Shown here: positions 21,230-39,480 of the stretch, one piece after another
How the letters are laid out: every line of letters starts with the position of its first letter
Position numbering within the stretch: the stretch's first letter is position 1
Virus record (IMG/VR): IMGVR_UViG_3300031244_000002
Coordinates: 1 to 61,666 of that record
DNA: 61,666 nucleotides
Reading direction: 5' to 3' (one strand)
DNA from: a virus
Lineage: Duplodnaviria; Caudoviricetes
Position numbers and translations under genes: made by a program
Notes under the pieces: generated by a model
Told to the model about the DNA's origin: nothing
The model's database searches: none
The model's input: the letters and a program-made list of their open reading frames with translations, nothing else

Positions 21230-21853
21230 TCACTCTACCTCAAATACCGTTGTCTTTGGCGTCTTTCGGTCAACCTGCCATGCGGTGGATGGGCCGACAC
21301 CCCCAAGCAACTTACCAAGCTCTTTATAGGTGCGTCGTGGTTTCTGCCTCCACTGCATCACGATCGCCTGTCGCTCATCTAGAGATCGAGGCATTATCGG
21401 TGATACTCGGCCAAGCTGCTTACCCTCTGCACGTGCAACCTGAAGCCCAGCGATCGTACGCTCTCGAATCAGATCGCGCTCTAGTTCGGCAACGCTTCCA
21501 AGAATTGATATCAGAAATCTCGACGCAGGATTCGATTCCGACGTATCGATATTCTGCCCAGGTACAACTAATGCTACTTTTAGTTTATTGAGTTCGGCGA
21601 TCAGCGAAGCGAAATGTGCCAGCGATCTTGCCAGTCGGTCGAGCTTGACCGTCATGATCATCTTTACCTGTCCAGCGCGTACCATCGTCATCAGCCGATC
21701 AAGCCCTGCGCGCGATGACTTTGACCCTGAAATGATGTCGGTAATCTCCTCATCTATGGTGATACCACGAGCTGTCGCGTAGGTCCGTAGCTCACGCAGC
21801 TGTGGCTCTAGCGTCTGGCTAGCCGTAGATACCCGGCAGTAGATTATGTTCAT
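21230..21853 (-). CDS. Small serine recombinase (resolvase/invertase family)
   Basis: YCRVST..Q, SG...R.GL, KLDRLARS, ELERDLIRERT..GL..AR..GK.LGR; C-terminal HTH. Confidence 0.92.
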   Translation of the reverse strand: MNIIYCRVSTASQTLEPQLRELRTYATARGITIDEEITDIISGSKSSRAGLDRLMTMVRAGQVKMIMTVKLDRLARSLAHFASLIAELNKLKVALVVPGQNIDTSESNPASRFLISILGSVAELERDLIRERTIAGLQVARAEGKQLGRVSPIMPRSLDERQAIVMQWRQKPRRTYKELGKLLGGVGPSTAWQVDRKTPKTTVFEVE

Positions 21854-26309: not shown

Positions 26310-26311
26310 TT

Positions 26312-27286: not shown

Positions 27287-27380
27287 AAACGCTTCTCCTG
27301 CTCCTAGCGCTCTATCCATTCGCTATCTGGAGTATTCACCATAGCAAGCGCTGCAAATTTAGAGAAACCCCAACCTATTT

Positions 27381-27611: not shown

Positions 27612-27689
27612 ATGACATAACCATAGGGCAACTAGCTATAGCTGCACTAATTGCTATCATCTCATTTATAGTCGGCTACATCTCCCACG

Positions 27690-28198: not shown

Positions 28199-28965
28199 TC
28201 GCATCTGATATCATAAAACTCCTAAAAGCCAAACATAGCGAAGATGTATTCGTCTCTGAATGTAAAGATGGCCCAACACAGAGCGTACGAAATTATCTTC
28301 GTATGGATGCATGGGTAATGCCGCGGAGCTGGACTCGCCAAGCGATCACAGCCTATGAGGTAAAGGTCAGCCGGTCCGACTTTCTTGGCGATGAGAAGTG
28401 GAGAAATTATCTGCCGCTATGTAACTACTTCTACTTCGCAACAGCACCGGGATTGATTCAGCTCAATGAGCTTCCTACAGAGGTTGGGCTAATAGAGGCA
28501 TCGAAATCGGGCAGCAGGCTGTTCATAAAGCGCAAGGCGGTGCATCACGAGGCTACGAATATAGAAGGCGTTTTACGCTACGTCCTAATGTGTCGATCGA
28601 CAATCCGAGGCGAGACTACAGAAAGTGGTAAGCGAGAATTCTGGAAGACATGGCTTGAGACACGCCAGATAGACGCAACGTTTGGCCATAACCTTTCAAA
28701 AAAGCTAAGAGAAACTATTGATAAGGAAATAATTCTAGCGCGCCATGAGAATGAAAACCTACTTCGAAAGATGGAGACCTACGATTCCCACAGGCAGATC
28801 CTAGATAGACTAAAACTTGATCACAATGTTAGTTCGTGGAGATTCGAGAATAAGCTTAATGAACTCAGGGCTGGGATCTCAGATCAAGAAATCAGGAATA
28901 TGGAGGACCTATCACTTTCACTCTCGCGGATTGCCTCAAAACTCAAAAATCCCATTCTCGCTTGA
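28195..28965 (+). CDS. MmcB-like PD-(D/E)XK nuclease-fold protein
   Basis: MDAW...AYEVKVSRSDF..D.KW..YL..CN.FYF..A.GLI...ELP..VGLI. Confidence 0.7.
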   Translation: MIASDIIKLLKAKHSEDVFVSECKDGPTQSVRNYLRMDAWVMPRSWTRQAITAYEVKVSRSDFLGDEKWRNYLPLCNYFYFATAPGLIQLNELPTEVGLIEASKSGSRLFIKRKAVHHEATNIEGVLRYVLMCRSTIRGETTESGKREFWKTWLETRQIDATFGHNLSKKLRETIDKEIILARHENENLLRKMETYDSHRQILDRLKLDHNVSSWRFENKLNELRAGISDQEIRNMEDLSLSLSRIASKLKNPILA

Positions 28966-28972
28966 CGGGAAT
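28955..28972 (+). promoter_or_regulatory. 18-bp repeated promoter/operator motif, copy 2
   Basis: TTCTCGCTTGACGGGAAT, identical to 52967-52984; upstream of GT9 gene and cassette array. Confidence 0.6.
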
Positions 28973-28998
28973 CTATTTTCAAAACACCCTCACTTTAC

Positions 28999-30090
28999 AT
29001 GCATATACTCACACTAGAAGACACGGTAGATCTCGGTTCAAAGCAGGTAATTAAACCAGATAGCTACCTCATTGACGACATAAACGCAGCCCACCTACTT
29101 GTCCTCGCAAGCCGAGGAACGATGAATAAACTGGCTACTATTCGTACTCTAGACGAAACACAAGATTGGAACAATAAGCGCATCCTTGTTATGCGTGCAG
29201 GTGGGTTTGGTGATCTTGTTTTGTTAACCCCGGTGCTCCGAGAAATTAAGCGCCGATGGCCATCCTGCTATATCGCCGTTTCTACGATGGCCACATACGC
29301 CCAGGTTATCTCTAACCTGCCATACGTTGACCACATATCTGAATATCCTATTCAAATCGATAACGCCAATACATTTGACGCATGGGTCTTTCTTGAAAAC
29401 GCGATCGAGAGAAACCCGCGCGCCGAAGAAGTTCATATGACCGAATTATTCGGTGAGATAGCCGGAATAAGCTCGATAGAAGATATTAAACCTGACTACA
29501 AGGTCAAAGCCACAGAGGCTATCTGGGCAAATGAAGCTTACCCCCGTGTTGAGGGCACACGCCGATGCTGCATCCAGATCGGCACATCAGCACTCTGCCG
29601 AACTTATCCTCGTCCTAAGCTCGGTGAAGTCTGCACTGCACTAATCCAAAAAGGCTGGGAAGTATTTTTACTTGGAGCTAATGGGGAAATCCGGGTAGAT
29701 AAGATGCCTCACAATATGCGTAACCTTGCCGATGCCGATCTTACGCTTCGGCAGTCTGCAGCGGTTATGAATAACGCTGATGTATTTCTTGGTAGCGATT
29801 CGGCACTGCTCCATATTGCTGGAGCATTAGCAGTACCAGCTGTTGGTCTCTACGGACCATTCCCATGGTTCCTACGCACAAAGCACTGCCCAACGACCGT
29901 AGCGATTTCAGGAACGGGTGCATGCGCGCCGTGTTTCCATCACGTTAACTCTGCGCGTCGTAATCATTTCCCGGATTACTGCCCATCAAAGAGCAAGGGG
30001 ATATGCCAGGTGCTTGAGGATATATCACCAGCACGCATCGTCACAAAGCTTGAATCGATAGCGCGTAACCAAATTGATATGATCCAATAA
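28999..30090 (+). CDS. Glycosyltransferase family 9 (heptosyltransferase-like)
   Basis: RILVMRAGGFGDLVLLTPVLREIKRRWP; GSDSALLHIAGAL..PAVGLYGP. Confidence 0.85.
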   Translation: MHILTLEDTVDLGSKQVIKPDSYLIDDINAAHLLVLASRGTMNKLATIRTLDETQDWNNKRILVMRAGGFGDLVLLTPVLREIKRRWPSCYIAVSTMATYAQVISNLPYVDHISEYPIQIDNANTFDAWVFLENAIERNPRAEEVHMTELFGEIAGISSIEDIKPDYKVKATEAIWANEAYPRVEGTRRCCIQIGTSALCRTYPRPKLGEVCTALIQKGWEVFLLGANGEIRVDKMPHNMRNLADADLTLRQSAAVMNNADVFLGSDSALLHIAGALAVPAVGLYGPFPWFLRTKHCPTTVAISGTGACAPCFHHVNSARRNHFPDYCPSKSKGICQVLEDISPARIVTKLESIARNQIDMIQ

Positions 30091-30103
30091 ACGCCATCTT
30101 CAA

Positions 30104-30148
30104 GAGTGAGCCATTACAAAGGTATTATCTGTAATACCATGGTTAGAG
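30104..30148. repeat. Degenerate attC-like site 0
   Basis: GTGAGCCAT left-arm motif; right arm GGTATTATCTGTAATACCATGGTT is 21/24 identical to that of site 2. Confidence 0.45.
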
Positions 30149-30154
30149 AAATCT

Positions 30155-30343
30155 ATGAAAACTGAAAAAGACCAAACACAGGAACAGATAAAGAACTAAC
30201 GCGACGTGCTCTTAAGCATCGAAGGCCAGGCTCAAAAACGACACGAAGAATCCGAGCGCGTAATCAAGCTCCTCGTGTCCGCTGGCCTCGTAAGCGATGA
30301 CAAGGTAGCGCAGGCCCGCGCACTGGCAAACCCTCTCTGCTGA
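30155..30343 (+). pseudogene. Cassette 0 ORF with internal stop
   Basis: MKTEKDQTQEQIKN*RDVLLSIEG...ANPLC*; in-frame TAA at 30197-30199. Confidence 0.5.
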
Positions 30344-30458
30344 ACATCCCAGTGAGCCACGGATCTGCCGCGAACACCTAAAAACCATGAACTCCACTGA
30401 CAACCCATCGAAAACCAAGGAACCGGCAGAGACGTTGCGCTCTAGTGGCTGGTTGGCC
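30339..30458. repeat. attC-like site 1
   Basis: GCTGAAC..GTGAGCCACGGATCTGCCG...CGGCAGAGACGTTGCGCTCTAGTGGCTG-GTTGGCC; ATG 30387 in loop. Confidence 0.8.
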
Positions 30459-30719
30459 GCTCTGACGGAAACCGCCGATGACCGCGAGCACGATGCGGCC
30501 CTGGTAATGCTGGACGATCTTCGTGCCGCCCTGCGATACATCGACAAGCTGGAATGCGCGAGCCGCGAAAACCTAATCTCTGCGCGAATAATCGACGCAG
30601 AGAACAACCAACGGGGACACATCTACGCTATCACGAGAGACGCTAAATTTATCCTCGCCAGAACCGAAGCGGCTCTTTATTCGGCCAACAAACCCGACTC
30701 AGCTAAACCCAACCTGTAA
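30387..30719 (+). CDS. Cassette 1 hypothetical protein
   Basis: Starts in site 1 loop, ends in site 2. Confidence 0.6.
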   Translation: MNSTDNPSKTKEPAETLRSSGWLAALTETADDREHDAALVMLDDLRAALRYIDKLECASRENLISARIIDAENNQRGHIYAITRDAKFILARTEAALYSANKPDSAKPNL

Positions 30720-30752
30720 TTACCGGCATTGTCTGTAATGCCATGGTTCTCC
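30683..30752. repeat. attC-like site 2 (poorly paired arms)
   Basis: GGCCAAC..CTCAGC...GGCATTGTCTGTAATGCCATG-GTTCTCC. Confidence 0.6.
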
Positions 30753-30780
30753 ATCCGATTTTAACCTCAATCAAAACGAT

Positions 30781-31155
30781 ATGGGATACATACGACATGA
30801 CGCAATAATTGTAACCGCTTGGGACTCCGAGCGGCTCGCCAGATGCGTGGCTAAAGCCGCCGAACTCGGGCTATGCCACACGGAAATAGTCGGCTCTAAA
30901 AGCAACGGATATGCCTCTTTTATGATCGTGCCGGACGGCTCGAAAGAGGGATGGCCTGCATCTGATGAGGGTAAAACAGCGCGGGAGGCATGGATCTTTT
31001 GGGCGCGAAACACCGAGGAGCTTTGGGCTGACTGGGTGCTCGTGAACTACGGCGGAGATGAGCCGGAATATACAAGCATTGCAGACCACAACGGCAAAGA
31101 GGCCGGAGCATTGGAGAACAACCGCGCTTCAGCCACGCCGGAGAAAATGCTATGA
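30781..31155 (+). CDS. Cassette 2 hypothetical protein
   Basis: MGYIRHDAIIVT...NGYASFMIVPDGSKEGW. Confidence 0.7.
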   Translation: MGYIRHDAIIVTAWDSERLARCVAKAAELGLCHTEIVGSKSNGYASFMIVPDGSKEGWPASDEGKTAREAWIFWARNTEELWADWVLVNYGGDEPEYTSIADHNGKEAGALENNRASATPEKML

Positions 31156-31206
31156 AAACAGAAACGAACAAAGCTCCGGCGTTGCGCTGTGAGGCAATAG
31201 TTAGGC
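31113..31206. repeat. attC-like site 3
   Basis: GGAGAAC..TCAGCCACGCCGGAG...CTCCGGCGTTGCGCTGTGAGGCAATA-GTTAGGC; ATGA stop/start overlap in loop. Confidence 0.85.
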
Positions 31207-31418
31207 TCTCGTGGAGACAATGGCTAGACATCAAACACGGCCTAGAAAATGGCGTAGCGATGTGGAAGACACATGCCGAGCGATACAAGACCGATCCGAT
31301 TTACAACGATACGCCACGCAAAACCATACATCCGGTACACCGCAGGATCATCGCACAGTATGCGCGCGCGCTGAAAACGATAGAGCGTATCGAGCCGAAC
31401 ACCCGCAGTGAGCCATGA
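31152..31418 (+). CDS. Cassette 3 hypothetical protein
   Basis: Starts in site 3 loop. Confidence 0.55.
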   Translation: MKTETNKAPALRCEAIVRLSWRQWLDIKHGLENGVAMWKTHAERYKTDPIYNDTPRKTIHPVHRRIIAQYARALKTIERIEPNTRSEP

Positions 31419-31453
31419 CGCGCAGCGGCATTGGCTCTGATGCATGGTTGGAC
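31394..31453. repeat. attC-like site 4 (60 bp)
   Basis: GCCGAACACCCGCAGTGAGCCATGACGCGCAGCGGCATTGGCTCTGATGCATG-GTTGGAC. Confidence 0.9.
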
Positions 31454-31480
31454 TCCGAACTTAAACCTTAAAACTACTAA

Positions 31481-32221
31481 ATGAATGAGCTGGCTCTTTT
31501 CGCAGCAACTGGTGGCGGACTACTTGGTGGAAAACTCTGTGGATTCACCACTCGCTGCGCTGTTGAAATCAACCCCTTCCGAGCTAGCGTACTGCTCGCA
31601 CGGCAACGCGACGGTTTACTCCCACACTTCCCAATCTGGGACAACGTGTGCACGTTTGACGGCGTACCATGGCGAGGAATTATTAGGGTGGTATCTGGCG
31701 GGTTTCCGTGCCCAGACATCGCCTCTGGCGGACCAGGCACGGGAATCTTCGGAACCCGATCCGGCCTCGCATTTGAAATGCTCAGAATCATTGGTGAGGT
31801 TCGACCTGCAATCGGACTGTTTGAAAATAGCCCACTGCTCACTCGCCGCGGTCTCGAATACATCCTTTTTGCTCTGGCCCGCATGGGGTACGATGCGCAA
31901 TGGGGAGTGCTGGGGGCGAACCAAGCCGGTGCTTCCCACGGAAGAAAAAGGGCATGGGTTCTGGCATCCGACCCCAACCAAAAGCGACCATCAAGGGGCA
32001 ACGACAAACGCTCTAATCAGGAAGGATGGAAGGACGCGGACCTGTCAGCTGAGATACTGGCTGCAAGACCGTTCCCGACGAACGGGAACGACATACCCGC
32101 ACCCCACGTTTTTGGAGGCAGTGATGGGATGGCCAATGGGCTGGAGCGGGTTGCAGCCTGTGGAGACGGTCAAGTACCAGCAGTGGTGGCGCTCGCATGG
32201 CATCTTCTTTCAAATGAATAA
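31481..32221 (+). CDS. C5-cytosine DNA methyltransferase, alpha-type polypeptide (cassette 4)
   Basis: Motif I LFAATGG, IV GGFPC, VI ENSP, VIII HGRKR, X GDGQVP; motif IX not seen. Confidence 0.8.
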   Translation: MNELALFAATGGGLLGGKLCGFTTRCAVEINPFRASVLLARQRDGLLPHFPIWDNVCTFDGVPWRGIIRVVSGGFPCPDIASGGPGTGIFGTRSGLAFEMLRIIGEVRPAIGLFENSPLLTRRGLEYILFALARMGYDAQWGVLGANQAGASHGRKRAWVLASDPNQKRPSRGNDKRSNQEGWKDADLSAEILAARPFPTNGNDIPAPHVFGGSDGMANGLERVAACGDGQVPAVVALAWHLLSNE

Positions 32222-32282
32222 CCAACCAACACGCTCCGCAGAGGAGTCCAACATCCCAGCTCAGCCACGCCCGCGTGCGTGA
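31485..32282 (+). CDS. Alternative-frame beta-type polypeptide of the C5-MTase
   Basis: 265-codon +1-frame overlap with HPTP and motif-IX-like HPTFLEAVMGWPMGWS; reads into site 5 with AAC=Asn. Confidence 0.6.
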   Translation: MSWLFSQQLVADYLVENSVDSPLAALLKSTPSELAYCSHGNATVYSHTSQSGTTCARLTAYHGEELLGWYLAGFRAQTSPLADQARESSEPDPASHLKCSESLVRFDLQSDCLKIAHCSLAAVSNTSFLLWPAWGTMRNGECWGRTKPVLPTEEKGHGFWHPTPTKSDHQGATTNALIRKDGRTRTCQLRYWLQDRSRRTGTTYPHPTFLEAVMGWPMGWSGLQPVETVKYQQWWRSHGIFFQMNNQPTRSAEESNIPAQPRPRA

Positions 32283-32377
32283 ATCAATCTCATGGAAACA
32301 AAAAATAAACAGAGCGTCGGACAGACGCCAGAACAAGGACAGAGCAAGGGCGTTGCTGCTGTGGCGAATGGTTCGGT
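32246..32377. repeat. attC-like site 5
   Basis: GTCCAAC..CTCAGCCACGCCC...GGGCGTTGCTGCTGTGGCGAATG-GTTCGGT; ATG 32292 in loop. Confidence 0.85.
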
Positions 32378-32624
32378 ACTCCGACAGATGGACCCTCAGC
32401 CAAACTGGCACGAGGAGCCCATCTTCGACGGTGATTCATGGGGCGCGAGATATGTCGGCGCAACGTGTAGCGCGTACGGTGAACCCGAGCAGACTGTTGG
32501 CGAAGACTGGCACAAAGCTCCGGACGACATGCGCGGCGCGAAGCCAGTCGAGCACCTTGGGTACTGGTACTGGTCCTTACCGAACAAAACAGGTGACCAA
32601 TTCCGGGGCCAGTCGGCTCCGTGA
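32292..32624 (+). CDS. Cassette 5 hypothetical protein
   Basis: Starts in site 5 loop, ends in site 6. Confidence 0.55.
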   Translation: METKNKQSVGQTPEQGQSKGVAAVANGSVLRQMDPQPNWHEEPIFDGDSWGARYVGATCSAYGEPEQTVGEDWHKAPDDMRGAKPVEHLGYWYWSLPNKTGDQFRGQSAP

Positions 32625-32710
32625 CACTAAAACCCAGTATTTCATTTTATGGACAACATCGAAGCAACAACGGATAGCGCCCCGGAATTGGGTCTAGTGC
32701 ATGGTTCTTC
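32579..32710. repeat. attC-like site 6
   Basis: ACCGAAC..GTGACCAATTCCGGGGC...GCCCCGGAATTGGGTCTAGTGCATG-GTTCTTC; ATG 32649 in loop. Confidence 0.85.
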
Positions 32711-33038
32711 GGTTTGGCAGATAGTCAGCATTATTTCAGACTCAGAATACGAGGAAGTGAACTGCAATGGTGGGGATCGCCGACGCATCACGAAATCACG
32801 CTGCGTTTGCGGTCAACCCGTATTGATCGAGCATGACGCTAATCGTGGTGGCGTGCGCCGAACATGCCGAGCGGATGGAAAGCGCGTATTCTACCCCAAC
32901 CAGCCGGACGTGGGCTGGTGCGTGTTTCGCTGTAAAGGATGCGGAGAGCCCATCGACCTGACGTGTCCAGACGCGTCATATTCTTTGCAGAACACCAACC
33001 GTCAGACAACCCCGCACTCGACCCATGCCAACGAATAA
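32649..33038 (+). CDS. Cassette 6 Cys-rich (Zn-binding-like) protein
   Basis: CVCG...FRCKGCG. Confidence 0.55.
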   Translation: MDNIEATTDSAPELGLVHGSSVWQIVSIISDSEYEEVNCNGGDRRRITKSRCVCGQPVLIEHDANRGGVRRTCRADGKRVFYPNQPDVGWCVFRCKGCGEPIDLTCPDASYSLQNTNRQTTPHSTHANE

Positions 33039-33092
33039 TCCTCAAGTCCCACCCCTGGCGCCATCGGGGTTGTCTGTACGAGCTGGTTCTGC
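32987..33092. repeat. attC-like site 7
   Basis: GCAGAAC..TCAGACAACCCCG...CGGGGTTGTCTGTACGAGCTG-GTTCTGC; ATG 33025 in loop. Confidence 0.85.
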
Positions 33093-33411
33093 GATTCTTT
33101 GTGAATCATGCGGATACTCAGGCGTGATCGATAGCTATCTCCCGTCGATGTCGGCTTACGCCGATTGCCGATGCCCAAAATGCGGAAGCACGAAAAACCA
33201 GCACAACGCCGACTATTCCGACCGACTCCGCAAGGCGTGGAGCTGTAAACATGTCGAGACACTGGTGGATGCGGGGCGCGCAAATGGGCACCTGATCCTT
33301 AAGTGCACCGAATGCGGATGCGTGGGGCTTGATTGGGCGATGCGCGGCGAACGGCCTCCTTTGCAGAACATCGCTGTGAGCCAACCCGGCACCCGGCCCG
33401 AAACTACCTAA
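33025..33411 (+). CDS. Cassette 7 Zn-ribbon protein
   Basis: CESCG, CPKCG, CTECG. Confidence 0.6.
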   Translation: MPTNNPQVPPLAPSGLSVRAGSAILCESCGYSGVIDSYLPSMSAYADCRCPKCGSTKNQHNADYSDRLRKAWSCKHVETLVDAGRANGHLILKCTECGCVGLDWAMRGERPPLQNIAVSQPGTRPETT

Positions 33412-33465
33412 ACGCAACGGCCTACCTGTGGCAGCATACGGGTTGGCTCTAAAAACTGGTTCGCA
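33363..33465. repeat. attC-like site 8
   Basis: GCAGAAC..GTGAGCCAACCCG...CGGGTTGGCTCTAAAAACTG-GTTCGCA. Confidence 0.85.
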
Positions 33466-33477
33466 CTTCTTTTCTCC

Positions 33478-33741
33478 ATGAAACTATACACCGTAGAAGT
33501 AACATTCAAAACCGTGATCCTCGCCGAAGACGCGAGGGACGCTGAAAATCAGGCCGAGAGCATCGTGAAGCGCGAAGATGATACCGCCGAAACCGTATCC
33601 GCTTTCGAACTGACTAACATCGACGAGCTTCCCGCACCCTGGGAGCCGAAATGCAGACCGTGGGGTAGAGCCCGCGACCCGTACGACCGCACAATCGGCG
33701 GCATTCTTGCGAACAACCAAGGTGACACACGCCATGAATGA
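33478..33741 (+). CDS. Cassette 8 hypothetical protein
   Basis: MKLYTVEVTF..VILAED...A; own start after site 8. Confidence 0.65.
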   Translation: MKLYTVEVTFKTVILAEDARDAENQAESIVKREDDTAETVSAFELTNIDELPAPWEPKCRPWGRARDPYDRTIGGILANNQGDTRHE

Positions 33742-33797
33742 CTCCGCTCAACAGAAAGGTGCCAGCAATGGCGTTGTGCCTAGCGCACTGGTTAGGC
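33708..33797. repeat. attC-like site 9
   Basis: TGCGAAC..GTGACACACGCCAT...ATGGCGTTGTGCCTAGCGCACTG-GTTAGGC; ATG 33734 inside. Confidence 0.8.
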
Positions 33798-34057
33798 CGA
33801 GAGTAGGACAGTGTTGGGCCTTTGGAGGCAGGAATGGGCGACTCGTAACAATTACCAGAGTATCTCATGGAATATGCGGATGCTGGGGCACTAGCACAAA
33901 GGGAAAGCTAGTGCCGGTTGGCGATAATCCGCATACTTGTTTTTACGTTCACGCAACGCCGTCTTGCTCGGCTCAATCGGTAAAATCATGGCTCTACAAC
34001 TGGCACTTTGTCAGTGGGACTAACGCCAGTGATGACCAACGAGCACAGCGAGAATAA
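33734..34057 (+). CDS. Cassette 9 hypothetical protein
   Basis: Start moved to ATG 33734 (MNDSAQQK) within site 9. Confidence 0.5.
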   Translation: MNDSAQQKGASNGVVPSALVRPRVGQCWAFGGRNGRLVTITRVSHGICGCWGTSTKGKLVPVGDNPHTCFYVHATPSCSAQSVKSWLYNWHFVSGTNASDDQRAQRE

Positions 34058-34136
34058 CTTTATGGACCAAAATACAACTCAACCTCAAGCCAACCAAGGA
34101 GCCGCTGTGCTCGTTGGGTCTGGCACTTTGTTAGGC
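34018..34136. repeat. attC-like site 10
   Basis: GACTAAC..ATGACCAACGAGCACAGCG...CGCTGTGCTCGTTGGGTCTGGCACTTT-GTTAGGC; ATG 34062 in loop. Confidence 0.85.
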
Positions 34137-34427
34137 GTCGGTTCTTCCGTGACATGGTGCCACTCGTCATCGAATGGCCGATCAATCGGATTCACGACAC
34201 GGCGCGGCAAGATCGTTCAAATCAACCACGAGAACGGCATGGCATTCGTGAAGTTCAGGGGAACGCACCTATGGATACGGCTCACGCGGCTGCGCTCGGC
34301 AAGCGCACGTACAGAACTCACCGAAATGGTCATGGAGGATGCTTCGCCTAAAGCGAGCCCGGCAAGCGACGATCCGCACGCCGCTGCAATATTCAACCTG
34401 CACCGCAGTAGGCAGGGACTCGCCTAA
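34062..34427 (+). CDS. Cassette 10 hypothetical protein (SH3/KOW-like)
   Basis: VGSSVTW...RRGKIVQI...AFVKFRG; stop TAA is part of core GCCTAAC. Confidence 0.5.
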   Translation: MDQNTTQPQANQGAAVLVGSGTLLGVGSSVTWCHSSSNGRSIGFTTRRGKIVQINHENGMAFVKFRGTHLWIRLTRLRSASARTELTEMVMEDASPKASPASDDPHAAAIFNLHRSRQGLA

Positions 34428-34521
34428 CGCCGGGGGTGAGACATGACCTGCGCCACAACCAACTCCCGAATTAACCTCAAAACGTCCAGCGCAGGGCATT
34501 GTCTCTAATCGCTGGTTCGCA
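34422..34521. repeat. attC-like site 11
   Basis: GCCTAAC..GTGAGACATGACCTGCGC...GCGCAGGGCATTGTCTCTAATCGCTG-GTTCGCA. Confidence 0.85.
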
Positions 34522-34528
34522 TCTTTTT

Positions 34529-34783
34529 ATGACCGACTTACACGCAATGAAACGAGAAATCGAGGGTGGCGACAATATGCGCGACCTCTCAGAGCTGCAC
34601 GCTTCCGATCTGGGCGAAATCGTCTGGCAGCATCGGAGTGGCGCAACCGACATCTACATCGCCAAGCGCCTGCGGGCAAAGCTCTGGCAGGTGAAAAACT
34701 ACATCCGCGATGTGGAGAAACGCTTTTCTGCGAACGTTACAGGTCAGCCACTCGGCAGAACAACCAATCAACATGAGCAATAA
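34529..34783 (+). CDS. Cassette 11 small HTH-like protein
   Basis: SGATDIYIAKRLRAKLWQVKNYI; start moved to ATG 34529. Confidence 0.5.
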   Translation: MTDLHAMKREIEGGDNMRDLSELHASDLGEIVWQHRSGATDIYIAKRLRAKLWQVKNYIRDVEKRFSANVTGQPLGRTTNQHEQ

Positions 34784-34840
34784 ACAAAATCGTAAGAAAA
34801 AGGACGGACAGCCGAGTTGCGCTGTAGCGACTGGTTCGGC
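34729..34840. repeat. attC-like site 12
   Basis: TGCGAAC..GTCAGCCACTCGGC...GCCGAGTTGCGCTGTAGCGACTG-GTTCGGC; ATG 34773 in loop. Confidence 0.85.
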
Positions 34841-35042
34841 TCAGTCCTTCAATAGTCGTATAACATTCTTCGGGTGTTTGATACTTGAAGAACCAACTGG
34901 ACAATGGGCCGTTGTCGAAACCCATGCGTTCAGAACGCGCGAAGAAGCTCAGTCTTTCGGAGAAGCAAAACTGCTGCTCACGCATGAAAGTGTGAAGCCG
35001 TCGCGTCTCGTGTGGAGGATAAAATCTCATGTCGCCCTTTGA
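34773..35042 (+). CDS. Cassette 12 hypothetical protein
   Basis: Start moved to ATG 34773 (MSNKQNRK). Confidence 0.5.
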   Translation: MSNKQNRKKKDGQPSCAVATGSAQSFNSRITFFGCLILEEPTGQWAVVETHAFRTREEAQSFGEAKLLLTHESVKPSRLVWRIKSHVAL

Positions 35043-35045
35043 TCT

Positions 35046-35105
35046 GCCGAACACCCGCAGTGAGCCATGACGCGCAGCGTCATTGGCTCTGATGCATGGT
35101 TCTGC
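35046..35105. repeat. attC-like site 13 (near-copy of site 4)
   Basis: 55/56 identical to site 4 up to GTT; ends GTTCTGC. Confidence 0.9.
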
Positions 35106-35122
35106 CCCTAAATCTCAAACTT

Positions 35123-35653
35123 ATGAAAACACCTAGAACAAACGCACAGATAATTCTTTTGACCGACGCTGAATCGGAAATGCTCCATCTTTTGAGTGGA
35201 GAACGCAGGCTGGTTCCTGCTGCGCTGGCTGAATCGCTAGAAACGCAGCTCACCCAATGGGTCGAAGCGGCGGACGCCTCGCAACAATCGCAGGCTTTCT
35301 ACGATGGATATGGAGAGGCGCAAATGCGGGCGATGCAGGCAATGATGACCAACGCCAAAACAGACGCCGACGATCAGGCGAAATGGGCAAAGCACTACTC
35401 CGACCGCTGCGACAAGCTGGTAGAACAGCTCGCGGAGTGCGCAGGCGTGCTGGCAAGCGTGGATACGGAACGCCGGTTTCGTGATATGCACGGAAACATT
35501 TGGATAAGCCAGACACTAGACTGGTGCAAGGGCGCGAAGGCCATCGGCGAGAAAGCAAACGCTCTACTGGAAGAGCACGACGATCTTTCCGCGCAGAACG
35601 CCGTCCATGAGCCAACCGCGCAACCCGGCCCATCGAAGCCCCTGGCGTCATAG
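35123..35653 (+). CDS. Cassette 13 coiled-coil hypothetical protein
   Basis: MKTPRTNA...VPAALAESLETQL; ends in site 14. Confidence 0.6.
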   Translation: MKTPRTNAQIILLTDAESEMLHLLSGERRLVPAALAESLETQLTQWVEAADASQQSQAFYDGYGEAQMRAMQAMMTNAKTDADDQAKWAKHYSDRCDKLVEQLAECAGVLASVDTERRFRDMHGNIWISQTLDWCKGAKAIGEKANALLEEHDDLSAQNAVHEPTAQPGPSKPLAS

Positions 35654-35680
35654 CGGTTGGCTCTGGGGACATGGTTAGGA
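35593..35680. repeat. attC-like site 14
   Basis: GCAGAAC..ATGAGCCAACCGC...GCGGTTGGCTCTGGGGACATG-GTTAGGA. Confidence 0.85.
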
Positions 35681-35690
35681 CTCCGAATTT

Positions 35691-35987
35691 ATGACACCAG
35701 AAAAACTAGATAAACTAATCGACAACATGAAACTTCCGCTTGGCGGCCCAGCATGGCTGCGCGCTAAGGCTGACGAAAAAGACGAGCTATTTCACCTAAT
35801 CACGTCGCCTGACCCAATAAATCGGCGCGAAGATGAGAGAGAAATCATTGGACTTAGGGATGCCGCAACGCGAATGGAGTACCTAGAACTGACGCTTGAG
35901 ATGCTCGATAAGCGCGTCCACTCAAACTACGACTTCAACGCCGACCCAGACAAGATGACGCTGCGCGTGTCGCGTGCTTTGTCCTAA
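35691..35987 (+). CDS. Cassette 14 hypothetical protein
   Basis: Stop TAA is part of core TCCTAAC. Confidence 0.6.
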   Translation: MTPEKLDKLIDNMKLPLGGPAWLRAKADEKDELFHLITSPDPINRREDEREIIGLRDAATRMEYLELTLEMLDKRVHSNYDFNADPDKMTLRVSRALS

Positions 35988-36079
35988 CAACCCAGCTCAG
36001 CCATGACCATGCCACTACCGACTCCAGCTCTCGCAGAAACGACCGCGCATGGTCATTGCGCTGTGGCGACTGGTTCTGC
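35982..36079. repeat. attC-like site 15
   Basis: TCCTAAC..CTCAGCCATGACCATGC...GCATGGTCATTGCGCTGTGGCGACTG-GTTCTGC; ATG 36003 inside. Confidence 0.85.
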
Positions 36080-36563
36080 CTCCGTCTTGGATGCGTGCTG
36101 CGGAAGTCGCATGTTCTGGTTCGACCGCGCTGACCCTCGTGCAATCTTCATCGACAAACGAAGCGAGCGGCACGAGCTGCCAGATAAATCAAGCAAGGGC
36201 GGAAAGCGGTCTCTGATCGTCGCGCCGGACATCGTCGCCGACTTCACGGCGCTTCCGTTCGCGGATGAGACGTTCGCGCTCGTGAGCTTCGATCCGCCGC
36301 ACTTCGAGCGCAATGGCGCGAAGGGCTGGGTCGGGCTGAAATACGGCACGCTCACGGGCGACTGGCGCGAGATGCTGCGCAAAGGCTTTGCCGAGTGCTT
36401 CCGAGTGCTCAAGCACGAGGGCACGCTCGTTTTCAAATGGTGCGAGGATGAAATCCCGGTCTCGCAGATCCTACAACTCACGCCGGAGCGGCCGCTGTTC
36501 GGCAACCGCTGTGGCAAAACCGCGAAAACGCACTGGGTCGTTTTCTTAAAGCAGAACAAGTAG
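36003..36563 (+). CDS. SAM-dependent (amino-type DNA) methyltransferase, cassette 15
   Basis: VLDACCGSRMFWFD (SAM binding), DFTALPF.D.TF.LV.FDPPH (DPPY-like), GTLVFKW. Confidence 0.8.
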   Translation: MTMPLPTPALAETTAHGHCAVATGSASVLDACCGSRMFWFDRADPRAIFIDKRSERHELPDKSSKGGKRSLIVAPDIVADFTALPFADETFALVSFDPPHFERNGAKGWVGLKYGTLTGDWREMLRKGFAECFRVLKHEGTLVFKWCEDEIPVSQILQLTPERPLFGNRCGKTAKTHWVVFLKQNK

Positions 36564-36600
36564 GTCGTACGATCTGCCAAGTCTAAACAATAAGTCATGA
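36551..36600. other. Terminal half-site (core only), candidate attI-like insertion point
   Basis: GCAGAAC complementary to the cassette-15 start GTTCTGC, but no palindromic partner arm follows. Confidence 0.45.
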
Positions 36601-36878
36601 GACTATCTAAACAAGGAATCGAACGCATTAGAAATGGCTTAATTCGCTCTTGGCAGACAGGCGGAACTCATCACCAGCGCGTGCAGACACAAGTAATCGA
36701 CGCAGATACACTGCGTAGGCGTGCTTTAAATGACCGAAAAGGAAAATTCGTTGGATCGTTCGATCTATACCACTCCACGCATCGCAGTGATCAGTTTGAT
36801 CTATTTTTTGAGAGTGAACTTGTTGCAACCGGTGGTCCTAGAGTGATAGCAAAATTTATGGCCAAAATCACACATTGA
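36597..36878 (+). CDS. Hypothetical protein
   Basis: 93-aa ORF right of array. Confidence 0.5.
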   Translation: MRLSKQGIERIRNGLIRSWQTGGTHHQRVQTQVIDADTLRRRALNDRKGKFVGSFDLYHSTHRSDQFDLFFESELVATGGPRVIAKFMAKITH

Positions 36879-36881
36879 CCA

Positions 36882-37217
36882 ATGCCTTATCGATCTAAAG
36901 TAAAACGCCTCCAGTATGCTGCACGATGGCGCCGACAGTATCCGGGATATATGTCTACCTATGGTAAGGAGTATTATAACCGTAAAAGAGAAAAACGCCG
37001 ATCACTTCTAGTTTTATGCATAATTTCACTATTTAAAAATTATCGTTTGGTTAGATCTGCATTTAAATCGGCTAAAATATATACACAGGAATCTAAATTA
37101 TTTAGATATTGGGTAAAAACAGTACCATGCCAAGATATACAAAACCAAATTGATAGACTGAAGAAGGACTTATCACCTACAGCAATACATACATTGGAGA
37201 TTACACTAGAAATTTAA
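36882..37217 (+). CDS. Basic hypothetical protein
   Basis: MPYRSK..R.QYAARWRR pattern; AT-rich. Confidence 0.45.
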   Translation: MPYRSKVKRLQYAARWRRQYPGYMSTYGKEYYNRKREKRRSLLVLCIISLFKNYRLVRSAFKSAKIYTQESKLFRYWVKTVPCQDIQNQIDRLKKDLSPTAIHTLEITLEI

Positions 37218-37218
37218 T

Positions 37219-39480
37219 ATGACTATTCAGAATCAGCTAAAAAACTTGGCGCATAGGGATCAGATTGGGGATTTCCTTAATTCACTTGGCCTAACTGGTA
37301 AAGGGGTAGAAGTCGGAACTCTTTACGGTGCCTATGCATCTGCGATACTTAGTAAGTGGAATGGGAATCTTAATTGCATTGACCCGTGGATAAACCAATC
37401 AGAAAAGGTTTATTTTGATCAGGCTAACGAGCTAGACATGGACCAGGTATTTGATCAATGCAGTGACGGGGTAGGCCGTCACCCACGCTGCACGCTGCAT
37501 CGAACAATGAGCCTTAATGGAGTAGGAAAATTCGATGACTACGAGTTGGATTTCGTTTACCTTGACGGTAATCACTCAGTTGAAGCGATACGTGAAGATA
37601 TATCAGCATGGTGGCCGAAAGTAAAGATAGGTGGTATATTTTCAGGCCATGATTTCTTTACTCGATACGATAGCACGGGGAACTGCGATGCGCTAACGGC
37701 AGTAATGGAACTATCCGAAGCTATCGGTATTCGACCTCATGTAACGTGGTGTTCAAGCTGGTGGTTTATTAAGACAGAGGAGGCGGATTTGAGCTTTCAA
37801 GGAGCTTGCGTAGAAGATCGCCTTTCACGTCCTGTATATACCACAAATCCAGATGAACTGGTTGTAGTTATTCCAGTTGCCAAGTTCGATTGGAATCTCG
37901 CTGTTAAGATGCTCACGTGGTGGTCAAATATGCTCAATGGAAAGCCTAACTACTATCCGACAATAGCACTTTGCTCAACAGAGCTCACCGCTGAACAGCG
38001 TGACGCCATAGGCGACTCAAGATTACCAAATCTATCAATCGTTGTAGCCAACGACGTTAAAGAACTTGGATATTTTGGCTCTCCTAATCAGATGATACGC
38101 CTAGCGCTTGAATACTGTGAAGTAAATTTCTGCGACCGTGCTATGCTTTGGGTCGAGGCAGATACAGTTCCAATGCGCCCATCATGGGTAAGCGATATAG
38201 CCGTTGAGTACTATAATTTCGGACGTCCATTCATGGGCGCTCTTCAACGTGAAGGGCCGGTCCCGCATCTCAGCGGTAACGCAGTGTACCATCCACAATG
38301 GCGCACACTCGCACCATCACTCGCTAAGCTCGGGCAAGAAGCCTGTGGATGGGATAGCCTGTGCGCACACGATATTGTCCCTCGATGCCATGTGGCTAAA
38401 ACTATTCAGCAAATATGGCGCCCACAGCTACCGATAACAGAGCAATTCCTAGAAAGCAGTATTCGACCTGAGACTGCGCTATTCCATCAATGCAAGGATG
38501 GTTCTCTGATCGATGTGTTGTGCAGGCGTGACGGCCTACAAGATATACCGTTAGGCAAAGCGCTATGTGAATCCACATATGAGACAGATAAAATTAAGAT
38601 CATAAACGAACCAGGTCACAAAGTGTTTAAACCAAAACCAAGGTATCAACCGGTAATAAAAACTACATCGATAAGCGTCGAGATATTGATCGTAACACAC
38701 GCAAAAGATATTCCATTCTTAAGGTTTTGCCTAGCATCTATCCACAAAAACACTGCTGGGTTTACAGGCACCACGCTTGTTGTACCTTCATCCGAAAGAG
38801 AGCAGTTCAAAAATATACCTAAGTGGGTTAAAATAGTCTATTTCGATCAAATCGAAGGTAAGGGCGTGATGCATCATGTACTCATGAAATGTAGGGCTGA
38901 TGAACTATGCCCAAATGCTGATGCAATTCTTCACGTAGATGCAGATTGCATGTTCTGGACGCCAACTACACCTGTTCATTATGCTCCTGGAGCTAAGCCA
39001 ATAATTCTCCGTGAGAAGTTCTCTAAAATAGGATCAAGAAATACGACCAGAATGTTATGGCAGAAAAATGTCGAAAGGGCACTAGGATTTCTACCGGAAT
39101 ACGAAACGATGGTTGCCCACCCAAATATCTACCTGAGGAGCCTATATCCAAAGATGAGATCGATAGTTCAAGATATCCATGGGATTCCGTTTGATCAATT
39201 TGCGCTATCTGGTAGGAATGAATTCCCGCAATCGTTCCAGGAATTTACAACGCTTGGTGCAACCGCCATAAAGTACTTTAACGAGTACTACAATTTTGTA
39301 GACTACGACCACGACCGAGACGGCCAGGAATGCGGTGTTGTTGGGTCGGACTACCAATATATTTACCGTCGAGACCGCGATCATCTAGTCGAAGCATGGA
39401 GCCATGGTGGTATCGATCGCTATAAATCAGACTGGACTGCATTCCTAGACGGTAAAGTACCTGCATACTATTTAAAATGA
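37219..39480 (+). CDS. Class I SAM methyltransferase (Methyltransf_24-like) fused to two glycosyltransferase-like domains
   Basis: GVEVGTLYG, IDPW, LDFVYLDGNH, WWPKVKIGG..SGHDF; later WVEADTVP and LHVDADC DxD-like motifs. Confidence 0.7.
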   Translation: MTIQNQLKNLAHRDQIGDFLNSLGLTGKGVEVGTLYGAYASAILSKWNGNLNCIDPWINQSEKVYFDQANELDMDQVFDQCSDGVGRHPRCTLHRTMSLNGVGKFDDYELDFVYLDGNHSVEAIREDISAWWPKVKIGGIFSGHDFFTRYDSTGNCDALTAVMELSEAIGIRPHVTWCSSWWFIKTEEADLSFQGACVEDRLSRPVYTTNPDELVVVIPVAKFDWNLAVKMLTWWSNMLNGKPNYYPTIALCSTELTAEQRDAIGDSRLPNLSIVVANDVKELGYFGSPNQMIRLALEYCEVNFCDRAMLWVEADTVPMRPSWVSDIAVEYYNFGRPFMGALQREGPVPHLSGNAVYHPQWRTLAPSLAKLGQEACGWDSLCAHDIVPRCHVAKTIQQIWRPQLPITEQFLESSIRPETALFHQCKDGSLIDVLCRRDGLQDIPLGKALCESTYETDKIKIINEPGHKVFKPKPRYQPVIKTTSISVEILIVTHAKDIPFLRFCLASIHKNTAGFTGTTLVVPSSEREQFKNIPKWVKIVYFDQIEGKGVMHHVLMKCRADELCPNADAILHVDADCMFWTPTTPVHYAPGAKPIILREKFSKIGSRNTTRMLWQKNVERALGFLPEYETMVAHPNIYLRSLYPKMRSIVQDIHGIPFDQFALSGRNEFPQSFQEFTTLGATAIKYFNEYYNFVDYDHDRDGQECGVVGSDYQYIYRRDRDHLVEAWSHGGIDRYKSDWTAFLDGKVPAYYLK

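What the first reader, a model, noticed from the sequence alone, without database searches (positions are those of the whole stretch)
30090..36600. Phage-borne integron-like cassette array with recombination footprints and no integrase
Seen: 15 imperfect palindromes of 60-132 bp (NNNNAAC, 5-7 nt, NNT[G/C]A..stem/loop/stem..T, 8-9 nt, GTTNNNN) separate single-gene units. The core opening each unit is the reverse complement of the core closing that same unit: GTTGGCC/GGCCAAC, GTTCTCC/GGAGAAC, GTTAGGC/GCCGAAC, GTTGGACTCC/GGAGTCCAAC, GTTCGGT/ACCGAAC, GTTCTTC/GCAGAAC, GTTCTGC/GCAGAAC, GTTCGCA/TGCGAAC, GTTAGGC/GACTAAC, GTTAGGC/GCCTAAC, GTTCGCA/TGCGAAC, GTTCGGC/GCCGAAC, GTTCTGC/GCAGAAC, GTTAGGA/TCCTAAC, GTTCTGC/GCAGAAC. 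That is 12 perfect and 3 with one mismatch, whereas the two cores within one palindrome match perfectly only once (site 7). Known: this offset complementarity results when circular cassettes are inserted by IntI crossover at the GTT triplet, and integrase-less attC clusters (CALINs) exist in bacteria. Inference: this phage builds its accessory region by site-specific cassette capture. The cargo is phage-like (DNA MTases, Zn-ribbon/HTH miniproteins), suggesting a phage-specific cassette pool.
Basis: partly seen in the sequence, partly recalled or inferred. Interest (0 to 1): 0.95.

Follow-up and report, generated by a model that had tools for sequence, protein, structure and literature searches.

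The report
Phage attC cassette array, genes inverted
A 61.7-kb phage genome carries sixteen small gene cassettes separated by genuine integron-type attC recombination sites, but each site sits in front of its gene and on the opposite strand from the bacterial arrangement, a layout that recurs in other uncultivated phages that share some of the same cassettes.

Summary
There are 16 imperfect palindromes (57-132 nt) plus a lone terminal core between 30092 and 36557. The 4 nt after each GTT are the reverse complement of the 4 nt before the next AAC in 12 of 16 units, 3 more with one mismatch. Every other pairing offset gives at most 1 perfect match, and 0 of 500,000 permutations reach 12.

The sites are real attC sites. 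Covariance models built from them, or only from sites in other viral contigs, pick out the aadA1, aac(6')-IIc and blaIMP-1 attCs and three phage TJE1 sites.

They match the canonical bottom strand, while here that strand is the coding strand. Extra-helical bases lie on the opposite arm from canonical cassettes. A ~94% identical methyltransferase unit in four viral contigs ends exactly at ...GCCTAAC, followed by four unrelated sites.

No tyrosine recombinase is encoded. A small serine invertase is. A host IntI acting in trans is inferred.

Phage-borne integrase-less attC clusters are already published (Qi et al. 2023). The array size, inverted polarity, start codons inside attC loops and cassette sharing among phages appear new.

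The parts
30098..36556 (+). Whole array: 16 cassettes, from the C of the first site (AT|C) to the AA of the terminal GCAGAA|C; 6459 bp
   Evidence: Site coordinates. Boundaries are inferred from model polarity and from breakpoints in related loci. G+C is 53-56% against 46-48% in the flanks.
30092..30148 (+). S0, first attC. It has ATC in place of the left AAC. Read on the - strand the junction is G|AT, a GWT-type secondary target. The following unit (30142-30345) holds only broken small ORFs, and its cores do not match (GTTAGAG / GCTGAAC).
   Evidence: 17.3 bits. GWT consensus from passages of bioRxiv 10.1101/2022.09.11.507474. The stop codon of the upstream glycosyltransferase gene is at 30088-30090.
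30339..30458 (+). S1 attC (120 nt). The ATG of ORF 30387-30719 lies in its loop.
   Evidence: 64.3 bits.
30683..30752 (+). S2 attC (70 nt), followed by ORF 30781-31155 (124 aa, phrog_11375).
   Evidence: A homologue in L007 has its own upstream site and the matching cores GTTCACC/GGTGAAC.
31113..31206 (+). S3 attC (94 nt). The ATG of ORF 31152-31418 lies in its loop.
31394..31453 (+). S4 attC (60 nt), followed by a C5 cytosine DNA methyltransferase, ORF 31481-32221. Cores GTTGGACTCC/GGAGTCCAAC.
   Evidence: PF00145, E 3.9e-18; phrog_363.
32246..32377 (+). S5 attC (132 nt). The ATG of ORF 32292-32624 lies in its loop.
32579..32710 (+). S6 attC (132 nt). The ATG of ORF 32649-33038 (phrog_19024) lies in its loop.
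32987..33092 (+). S7 attC (106 nt). The ATG of ORF 33025-33411 (Cys-rich; only weak zinc-ribbon hits) lies in its loop.
33363..33465 (+). S8 attC (103 nt), followed by ORF 33478-33741.
33708..33797 (+). S9 attC (90 nt). ATG 33734 of the ORF ending at 34057 lies in its loop.
34018..34136 (+). S10 attC (119 nt). ATG 34062 of the ORF ending at 34427 lies in its loop.
34422..34521 (+). S11 attC (100 nt), followed by the ORF ending at 34783.
34729..34840 (+). S12 attC (112 nt). ATG 34773 of the ORF ending at 35042 lies in its loop.
35046..35105 (+). S13 attC (60 nt), nearly identical to S4 from GCCGAAC to GTT; followed by ORF 35096/35123-35653.
35593..35680 (+). S14 attC (88 nt), followed by ORF 35691-35987.
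35982..36079 (+). S15 attC (98 nt). ATG 36003 of the DNA methyltransferase ORF 36003-36563 lies in its loop. Most homologues align only from residue 27-28, just after the GTTCTGC core.
   Evidence: (phrog_954, E 1e-69, from residue 23).
36551..36557 (+). Terminal closing core GCAGAAC, the perfect complement of GTTCTGC at 36073-36079, with no stem-loop after it.
21230..21853 (-). Serine recombinase (DNA-invertase type, 207 aa), 8.2 kb upstream of the array. Probably unrelated to it; it is the only recombinase of the families searched that was found in the window.
   Evidence: PF00239, 137 bits; phrog_125.

Best explanation
Positions 30098-36556 are a cluster of 16 integron-type gene cassettes without an integrase (a CALIN) in a tailed-phage genome.

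Each site is an attC: a 7-bp R box (NNNNAAC / GTTNNNN), an unpaired spacer, an L box with a bulged T, a stem with a second bulged T, and a variable loop. The strand that looks like the recombining 'bottom' strand of bacterial attC sites is here the coding (+) strand.

By analogy with IntI chemistry, cleavage falls between A and C of the left core (AA|C). Each cassette then runs C, attC, GTTnnnn, gene, n'n'n'n'AA. As a circle, its two ends pair to form the R box. In the array, the four bases before every AAC belong to the cassette upstream. That produces the offset complementarity.

In 9 of 16 cassettes the start codon lies in the attC loop, and the reading frame runs through the L and R boxes into the gene.

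The array as a whole sits in what reads as one GAT trinucleotide, 6 nt after the stop codon of a family-9 glycosyltransferase gene. That fits insertion at a GWT secondary site.

The phage encodes no tyrosine recombinase, so the recombinase is inferred to be an integron integrase supplied by the host.

Shown: the sites, their statistics, their likeness to attC, their polarity, the breakpoints and the core covariation. Inferred: the cleavage point, the circular intermediate, the GAT target and the host IntI.
For: (1) Core statistics. Of 16 units, 12 are perfect and 3 have one mismatch at offset +1. Every other offset gives at most 1 perfect match, and 0 of 500,000 permutations reach 12.

(2) attC identity.
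- Model R1, built from the 16 window sites, gave exactly one hit in 99,219 bp of plasmid R100 plus phage TJE1: the aadA1 attC (30.8 bits, E 4e-7).
- Model R2, built only from 22 sites of 7 other viral loci, found 13 of the 16 window sites and scored the aadA1 attC highest (52.3 bits).
- R2 also found the aadA1 (pESI), aac(6')-IIc (two plasmids) and blaIMP-1 attCs, which were 4 of 4 hits in 39 kb.
- R2 found three sites in TJE1. Qi et al. report 3 attC sites there.

(3) Polarity.
- All those control hits, and 6 sites in MAG contig G006:C119, lie on the strand antisense to the adjacent gene.
- All 16 window sites lie on the gene-sense strand. So do the sites next to the methyltransferase or ORF-30781 homologue in 13 further loci: L007, L009, L010, L012, L014, L016, L017, L018, L032, L047, L053, L060 and L061.
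- In L012, a second cluster on the - strand goes with ATG-ORFs on the - strand.

(4) Extra bases, read in the gene-sense orientation. The right arm carries more in 10 of 15 window sites (left 1, equal 4) and in 10 of 12 sites of other viral arrays. The left arm carries more in 9 of 12 canonical controls (right 0).

(5) Breakpoints.
- L010, L012, L014 and L032 share a 93-94% identical methyltransferase unit over locus positions 5957-6478. It ends at ...GGGGGCCTAAC and is followed by four unrelated sites.
- L012 and L032 share one unit that starts right after the AAC of the upstream site.
- Window and L060 share the upstream site, including its loop, plus the gene, and diverge after GCAGAAC.

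(6) Covariation. In the homologous methyltransferase cassette of 10 loci, opening and closing cores are perfect complements in 8, using 4 different core pairs. The ORF-30781 cassette has GTTCTCC/GGAGAAC here and GTTCACC/GGTGAAC in L007.

(7) Reading frames. All 9 long sites have a loop ATG in frame with the downstream ORF.

(8) Array ends. The array begins with a site whose AAC reads ATC and ends with a bare AAC core. IntI1 inserts cassettes at 5'-GWT-3' genomic sites (passages of 10.1101/2022.09.11.507474).
Against: - No recombination was observed. Read-level tests for circles or deletions could not be run.
- No integron integrase is in the phage, and its host is unknown.
- S4 and S13 are nearly identical from GCCGAAC to GTT, including the four bases before AAC. 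Under this model those bases belong to two different upstream cassettes. A gene-plus-downstream-site unit would explain that more simply. I can only invoke conversion between the two sites, and the unit before S4 is indeed one of the three with a mismatch.
- In 11 of 15 units the stop codon lies 6-54 nt beyond the AAC (positions). The last codons would therefore be supplied by the next cassette.
- Only 4 of 16 right cores fit the textbook GTTRRRY (one search list).
- The 8 nt after the terminal AAC (AAGTAGGT) resemble the usual spacer (...AGGT). The last site may be a truncated attC rather than an untouched target.
- Strand assignment of genes in the other arrays by open-frame length or codon-position G+C was inconclusive. 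There it rests on the homologous genes only.
- R2 was selected with R1, so the two models are not fully independent.
Confidence: 0.75

Rival explanations
1. This is an ordinary-handed CALIN. Each cassette is a gene plus the attC downstream of it, the crossover is at G|TT on the + strand, and the array was copied from a bacterial integron.
For: The offset complementarity is equally expected under this model. S4 and S13 are identical from GCCGAAC to GTT and differ right after GTT. Most ORFs end inside the downstream site, as often seen in bacterial cassettes. In L010 the methyltransferase has a site after it but none before it.
Against: Both models match canonical attCs only on the strand antisense to the cassette gene, but match the window on the sense strand. 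Extra bases sit on the opposite arm. The same methyltransferase gene is followed by four different sites with the break at AAC, whereas the upstream site is co-inherited. Nine start codons would be separated from their genes at every exchange.
Confidence: 0.1
2. The palindromes are regulatory or RNA-structure repeats (terminators, processing sites, or promoter-stem-loop modules like the PeSL elements of T4-type phages, recalled). Genes are shuffled between them by homologous recombination, for example by the phage's own RecT/exonuclease pair.
For: The phage encodes a RecT-like annealing protein and an exonuclease (53185-56749). The sites lie between all genes of one transcription direction. 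Related sites show mosaic similarity.
Against: Homologous exchange does not explain why the variable four bases flanking each gene are complementary and covary between phages. Breaks fall at one triplet, not across the repeat. Promoter-like and terminator-like matches are not enriched (5 against 5.6 +/- 3.1, and 13 against 10.1 +/- 3.3) and do not coincide with the sites. The sites match attC models, including clinical attCs.
Confidence: 0.07
3. The sites are substrates of a phage-encoded recombinase, namely the serine recombinase at 21230-21853. Similar genes occur in 3 of 3 near-complete array-bearing viral records.
For: PF00239 hits in G000, G001 and G004. In the window and in G001 the gene lies 6-8 kb from an array, on the opposite strand.
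Against: Small serine recombinases act on double-stranded sites with a 2-bp crossover (established knowledge), not on hairpins with bulged bases. The three proteins differ widely in size (207-, 237- and 549-aa frames). Two other array-bearing records gave no hit, though these are incomplete. The sites are indistinguishable in plan from IntI substrates.
Confidence: 0.04

Closest known systems
CALINs (clusters of attC sites lacking an integron integrase) in phage genomes (Qi, Rajabal, Ghaly, Tetu, Gillings 2023, PMC9892861; abstract and sections 2.1 and 3.4 read; tables and legends seen as passages; supplements not seen)
   Same: attC sites between single genes in a phage, no intI, and DNA methyltransferase cassettes. 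My model R2 finds three sites in their phage TJE1.
   Different: The arrays they describe in the text are small (a minimum of 2 attC sites; TJE1 has 3 attC sites and 4 ORFs). The window has 16. In TJE1 the sites lie after their genes with canonical polarity. Here they lie before their genes with inverted polarity, and 9 of 16 contain the start codon. Their supplementary tables, which I could not open, may list larger or inverted arrays.
Bacterial integron cassettes and attC sites (for example aadA1, aac(6')-IIc and blaIMP-1 of class 1 integrons)
   Same: R box with AAC/GTT, spacing from R box to stem, an L box and stem each with a bulged base, a variable loop, a 57-132 nt size, 7-bp complementarity between the two ends of a cassette, and cross-detection by covariance models.
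   Different: No intI, attI or Pc promoter. The gene lies on the strand that corresponds to the attC bottom strand. The L-box bulge is T rather than G in the window. In the other viral arrays the two extra bases on the right arm read G and T, as in aadA1. Only 4 of 16 right cores fit GTTRRRY. Cassettes are short (247-852 bp).
IntI-mediated insertion of cassettes at genomic attG sites (Loot et al., bioRxiv 10.1101/2022.09.11.507474; passages read)
   Same: The outer junctions of the array read as one G|AT target, which fits the 5'-GWT-3' consensus.
   Different: That work concerns single cassettes in the E. coli chromosome. Here 16 cassettes lie in a phage, and no empty site is available for comparison.
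PeSL mobile regulatory cassettes of T4-type phages
   Same: Single accessory genes of phages flanked by repeated stem-loops in a hyperplastic region.
   Different: PeSLs combine an early promoter with a stem-loop and shuffle by homology. Here there is no promoter signal, there is a site-specific footprint, and the sites have attC architecture.

Membership tests
integron attC site | Imperfect palindrome bounded by inverse core ...AAC and core GTT... | tested here: met
   GTT in 16 of 16 sites and AAC in 15 of 16 (S0 has ATC).
integron attC site | Core consensus GTTRRRY / RYYYAAC (recalled consensus) | tested here: inconclusive
   Only 4 of 16 right cores are RRRY (AGGC three times, GGAC once; list). 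The consensus is known to be loose, and the sites of the related viral arrays fit it better (GTTAGGC, GTTGGGC).
integron attC site | L box and stem with extra-helical bases on one arm only (the basis of strand choice) | tested here: met
   An invariant bulge-column T and an invariant T after the L-box stem. The right arm is longer in 10 of 15 sites, the left in 1. In the model-to-aadA1 alignment the bulged T of the window sites falls at the bulged T of the aadA1 attC.
integron attC site | Detected by an attC covariance model | tested here: met
   The IntegronFinder and HattCI models were not available. As a proxy, models built from these sites (R1) and from sites of other viral loci (R2) cross-detect aadA1, aac(6')-IIc, blaIMP-1 and TJE1 sites with no other hits in the control sequence. 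Rfam holds no matching family.
integron attC site | Recombined by an integron integrase as a folded single strand | not testable with these tools
   Needs an attC x attI conjugation assay.
integron gene cassette | The two ends of a cassette are complementary over the 7-bp core, so array sites are chimeric | tested here: met
   12 of 16 perfect, 3 with one mismatch, 0 of 500,000 permutations reach 12. Covariation across 10 loci.
integron gene cassette | Usual layout: promoterless gene followed by its attC, with the gene on the attC top strand | tested here: not met
   Sites lie on the gene-sense strand as bottom-strand look-alikes. Breakpoints lie at AAC. This is the usual layout, not a definition (reverse-oriented cassettes exist in bacteria, recalled), so I file it as a variant.
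CALIN | Two or more attC sites close together with no integron integrase nearby (definition recalled from the IntegronFinder papers) | tested here: met
   16 sites in 6.5 kb. No TIGR02249 or PF00589 match anywhere in the 61.7-kb record, which CheckV rates 98% complete.
complete integron | An intI gene with attI and a promoter next to the array | tested here: not met
   No tyrosine recombinase. The genes next to the array are a glycosyltransferase, small ORFs and a 753-aa protein with a methyltransferase domain.
PeSL-type regulatory cassette | A promoter plus stem-loop module between genes | tested here: not met
   Promoter-like matches number 5 against 5.6 expected, and none lies in a site.

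The most novel reading that the evidence does not exclude
Tailed phages maintain their own pool of integron-type cassettes, built the other way round from bacterial ones. The attC precedes the gene, lies with its recombining strand on the coding strand, and often encodes the start codon and the first 20-30 residues. Such cassettes would be silent from the promoter of a bacterial integron, but are expressed when strung into a phage operon. They are exchanged among unrelated phages by host integron integrases, giving phages a modular store of methyltransferases and small, possibly anti-defence, proteins.
Probability: 0.45. Interest if true: 0.8.

Novelty: new variant of a known kind. Interest (0 to 1): 0.68.

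Why it matters
Integrons are regarded as bacterial devices, and phage-borne attC clusters as small stray pieces of them. Here a near-complete phage genome devotes a tenth of its length to 16 cassettes. Homologues of two of them, with the same reversed layout, recur in at least a dozen other viral or phage-like contigs, with exchange breakpoints at the recombination core.

If host integrases really move these units, phages have a site-specific route to gain and swap accessory genes. Here these include two DNA methyltransferases that would protect against restriction. Integron integrases would then act on infecting phage DNA.

The reversed polarity gives a clear, cheap test: which strand recombines. 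It also bears on how cassettes are born and expressed.

Annotation pipelines that assume gene-then-attC would assign these cassettes wrongly.

Tried and rejected
Close relatives for an empty-site or gain/loss comparison.
- Megablast of 26000-41000 against 50,697 phage records found nothing.
- The upstream glycosyltransferase had no relative in viral contigs.
- The downstream 753-aa protein gave one viral locus (L001, 57% identity) and three metagenome loci (35-44%). None has sites.
- G001 (the record of L007) is a 45-70% aa relative, but its gene order is rearranged. Its glycosyltransferase gene is followed by other sequence, so no empty site could be read.

Other negative or inconclusive steps.
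- Rfam: no family matched. tRNA: none.
- IUPAC patterns for collection scans were too insensitive because loop lengths vary (2 and 4 of 16 sites). I used protein-seeded loci instead.
- Strand of genes in other arrays from open-frame length (35 against 27) or codon-position G+C (35 / 23 / 7) was inconclusive in 60-70% G+C DNA. One interval known to be + was called -. I dropped this and rely on homologous genes.
- Phage P12002L gave no R2 hit at E <= 1.
- arr, aac(3)-IIg, ereA2 and the NTF2 cassette of plasmid L057 gave no R2 hit, so the models miss many attCs.
- A candidate IntI-like gene in the Omnitrophota MAG (208 bits, below the 265 cut-off) has no R2 site in the 2 kb left on its contig.
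- The small tyrosine recombinase in G002 is Xer-like and far below family cut-offs.
- Y1 transposase (PF01797): none in 5 viral records.
- R2 in 61 Cellvibrionaceae genomes hit 20, but only 93 candidates per genome were scored. This says nothing about the window's host.
- Pfam and PHROGs leave 12 of 16 cassette ORFs without a significant family match.

Not used: protein structure, complex and atlas tools, and the large protein homology searches. The question was about DNA sites.

Literature searches for phage attC arrays and for inverted cassette polarity returned only Qi et al. 2023 as directly relevant. I read listings only for the other papers.

Full report
WHAT THE WINDOW IS

The 61,666-bp window is a whole IMG/VR virus record that CheckV rates 98% complete. 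It encodes:
- a major head protein, tail proteins and a terminase-like protein;
- DnaB and other helicases;
- a RecT-like annealing protein with an exonuclease;
- a family-9 glycosyltransferase;
- a DNA-invertase-type serine recombinase.

It has no tRNA genes and no Rfam match. From about 25 kb to 59 kb the long reading frames run on the + strand.

THE OBSERVATION

Reading 29800-36900 and a pattern scan show 16 imperfect palindromes of 57-132 nt between single small ORFs, plus a lone GCAGAAC at 36551-36557.
- The four bases after each GTT are the reverse complement of the four bases before the next AAC in 12 of 16 units. Three more have one mismatch. The first unit has no match.
- Pairing each GTT core with any other AAC core (offsets -3 to +4) gives at most one perfect match.
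- None of 500,000 permutations reaches 12 (maximum 9).
- The perfect match extends 7-10 nt in the 12 perfectly matching units.

The array has 53-56% G+C against 46-48% on both sides.

ARE THE SITES attC SITES?

An alignment of the 16 sites (A1) has invariant AAC and GTT, a conserved T(G/C)AGCC left arm and a (G/A)TTG..GCT(C/G)T right arm. A 12-pair structure is paired in 87% of cells against 75% in shuffles. It has 21 double-sided changes against 7 expected, and it collapses when slid by one column.

Model R1, built from this alignment:
- finds only the 16 sites in the window, all on the + strand;
- finds nothing in four loci of distant relatives;
- gives exactly one hit in 99 kb of plasmid R100 and phage TJE1, the aadA1 attC (sequence read).

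Model R2 was built from 22 sites in seven other viral loci, without any window sequence.
- Its best score is on the aadA1 attC.
- It recovers 13 of 16 window sites.
- It finds the aadA1, aac(6')-IIc and blaIMP-1 attCs on three further plasmids, which were 4 of 4 hits in 39 kb.
- It finds three sites in TJE1. That number agrees with Qi et al. 2023.

The spacing from the R box to the stem, and the position of the bulged T, match aadA1 in the model alignment. I conclude that these are attC sites of the integron type. The official IntegronFinder model could not be run.

POLARITY

Every control hit lies on the strand antisense to the neighbouring cassette gene, just past its 3' end. That is the textbook arrangement: the gene is on the attC top strand and the models match the bottom strand. 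The controls are aadA1 in two records, aac(6')-IIc in two records, blaIMP-1, three TJE1 sites, and six sites in the MAG contig G006:C119 whose ATG-ORFs are on the other strand.

In the window all 16 hits are on the sense strand.

A direct count of unpaired extra bases, read in the gene-sense orientation, agrees:
- canonical controls carry them on the left arm (9 of 12, none on the right);
- window sites carry them on the right arm (10 of 15, left 1);
- other viral arrays also carry them on the right arm (10 of 12).

In those other viral arrays the two extra bases on the right arm read G and T, at the positions of the C and A that are extra in the left arm of aadA1 on its gene-sense strand.

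RELATED ARRAYS AND BREAKPOINTS

The last cassette's methyltransferase has 46 relatives in viral contigs and 8 in genomes. ORF 30781-31155 has 2 relatives in viral contigs.

R2 finds three or more sites in L007, L010, L012, L014, L016, L017, L018, L032, L053, L060 and L061. The sites adjacent to the homologous gene are always on its strand. In L012, a second cluster on the - strand goes with ATG-ORFs on the - strand.

L010, L012, L014 and L032 share a 93-94% identical segment that ends at ...GGGGGCCTAAC. Four unrelated sites follow it. Upstream, L012, L014 and L032 keep related sites ending CGCCCGGTTAGGC, the complement of the closing GCCTAAC. The four bases before those sites' AAC differ.

Window and L060 (75% aa identity) share the upstream site, including its loop, and diverge after GCAGAAC.

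The exchanged unit therefore runs from one AAC to the next: site plus downstream gene. That is what cleavage at AA|C of a bottom-strand-like + strand predicts.

Across 10 loci the opening and closing cores of this cassette are perfect complements in 8, with four different core pairs. The ORF-30781 cassette shows the same compensation.

CODING OVERLAP

In all nine sites longer than 89 nt, an ATG in the loop is in frame with the downstream ORF. Most methyltransferase homologues align only from residue 27-28, just past the core. The loop therefore encodes a cassette-specific leader. L009 and L060 have comparable in-frame loop ATGs.

In 11 of 15 units the stop codon lies a few codons beyond the AAC, so the tails are supplied by the next cassette. 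In two units, and in the L010-group methyltransferase, the stop is the TAA of the core itself.

ARRAY ENDS

The first site has ATC where AAC is expected, 6 nt after the glycosyltransferase stop codon. The array ends with a bare GCAGAAC. On the - strand this reads ...CTACTTG|TTCTGC at one end and ...G|ATGGCG at the other. That is one GAT target split by the array, which fits the 5'-GWT-3' secondary sites of IntI1-3. This is inference only. No empty site was found, and the 8 nt after the last AAC look somewhat like a site spacer.

RECOMBINASE

Neither TIGR02249 nor PF00589 matches anywhere in the window. Two other near-complete array-bearing records (G001 and G004) also lack a PF00589 match.

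A serine recombinase is present in all three. The three proteins are of very different sizes, and the site architecture is that of a tyrosine-recombinase hairpin substrate. I give this rival little weight. A host integron integrase acting in trans is the most economical inference and is untested.

CARGO

- A C5 cytosine methyltransferase.
- A second DNA methyltransferase.
- Two ORFs in phage families of unknown function.
- Twelve ORFs with no significant family match.

Promoter-like and terminator-like matches are at chance level.

KNOWN OR NEW

Qi et al. (PMC9892861) scanned 10,705 phage genomes and reported 17 integrase-less attC clusters, including some in virulent phages. Methyltransferase cassettes were among the cargo, and 5 of 6 tested sites were recombined by IntI1. 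The kind is therefore known.

Compared with what I could read there, four things differ here: the size (16 sites against 3 attC sites in TJE1, the one array whose count I read), the inverted gene polarity, the start codons inside attC loops, and the sharing of cassettes among many uncultivated phages with breaks at the core. Four literature searches found nothing on inverted phage cassettes.

OPEN POINTS

The near-identity of S4 and S13, including the four bases before AAC, does not fit the model neatly. No recombination was observed.

Noticed in passing
window 21230-21853 (-): A 207-aa serine recombinase of the DNA-invertase type (PF00239 137 bits; phrog_125). Similar genes occur in two other near-complete array-bearing viral records. 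I looked for neither an invertible segment nor its target.
   Followed up: partly
window, columns 110-117 of alignment A1 (loops of S1, S3, S5, S6, S9, S10, S11, S12, S15): A purine-rich motif (CAAGGA/AAACGA) sits just 5' of the right arm in all nine long loops. It is read in different frames, so it looks like a DNA- or RNA-level signal rather than a coding one. Its role is unknown.
   Followed up: no
window 31394-31453 and 35046-35105: S4 and S13 differ at one base over 60 nt, and this includes the four bases before AAC. The leaders after S4 and S14 also share GGACTCCGAA.TT. This suggests conversion or homologous exchange between sites on top of site-specific exchange.
   Followed up: partly
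L009 188-226 and 746-784: A 39-nt direct repeat (the left arm plus loop start of a site, including the ATG) flanks the methyltransferase gene. The second copy runs into a different, AAC-less site. It looks like an aberrant or homology-driven event.
   Followed up: partly
L055 1074-1121 (-) and 1453-2046 (-): In the record of L010, an R2 site (40.7 bits) lies about 330 nt downstream of a 197-aa Xer-like tyrosine recombinase gene, a few kb from the array. It could be a recombinase carried as a cassette or a minimal array-associated recombinase.
   Followed up: partly
G001 (L007, L081-L083): A 59-kb relative of the window phage (45-70% aa identity over most genes) has a rearranged module order and two separate clusters of sites (L007 5718-7879, and L083 540-2503 on the - strand).
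   Followed up: partly
window 30781, 31481, 33478, 34529, 35123, 35691, 36597 (start codons): Most start codons in and around the array lack a Shine-Dalgarno-like sequence and are preceded by A/T-rich stretches. The related higher-G+C arrays have AGGAG before ATG. This may be a hint about the host.
   Followed up: no
window 43888-50547 (+) and 60034-61170 (-): A 2219-aa protein has only marginal domain hits. An RCC1-repeat protein is encoded on the - strand at the right end.
   Followed up: no
window 37219-39480 (+): A 753-aa protein with an N-terminal methyltransferase domain lies just downstream of the array. Together with the two cassette methyltransferases and the glycosyltransferase, this region looks devoted to DNA or surface modification.
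   Followed up: no
L090 (G006:C119 1-7605): The same MAG that holds the phage-type inverted array (L060) also holds a 7.6-kb contig with six sites in the canonical arrangement (genes on the opposite strand).
   Followed up: partly
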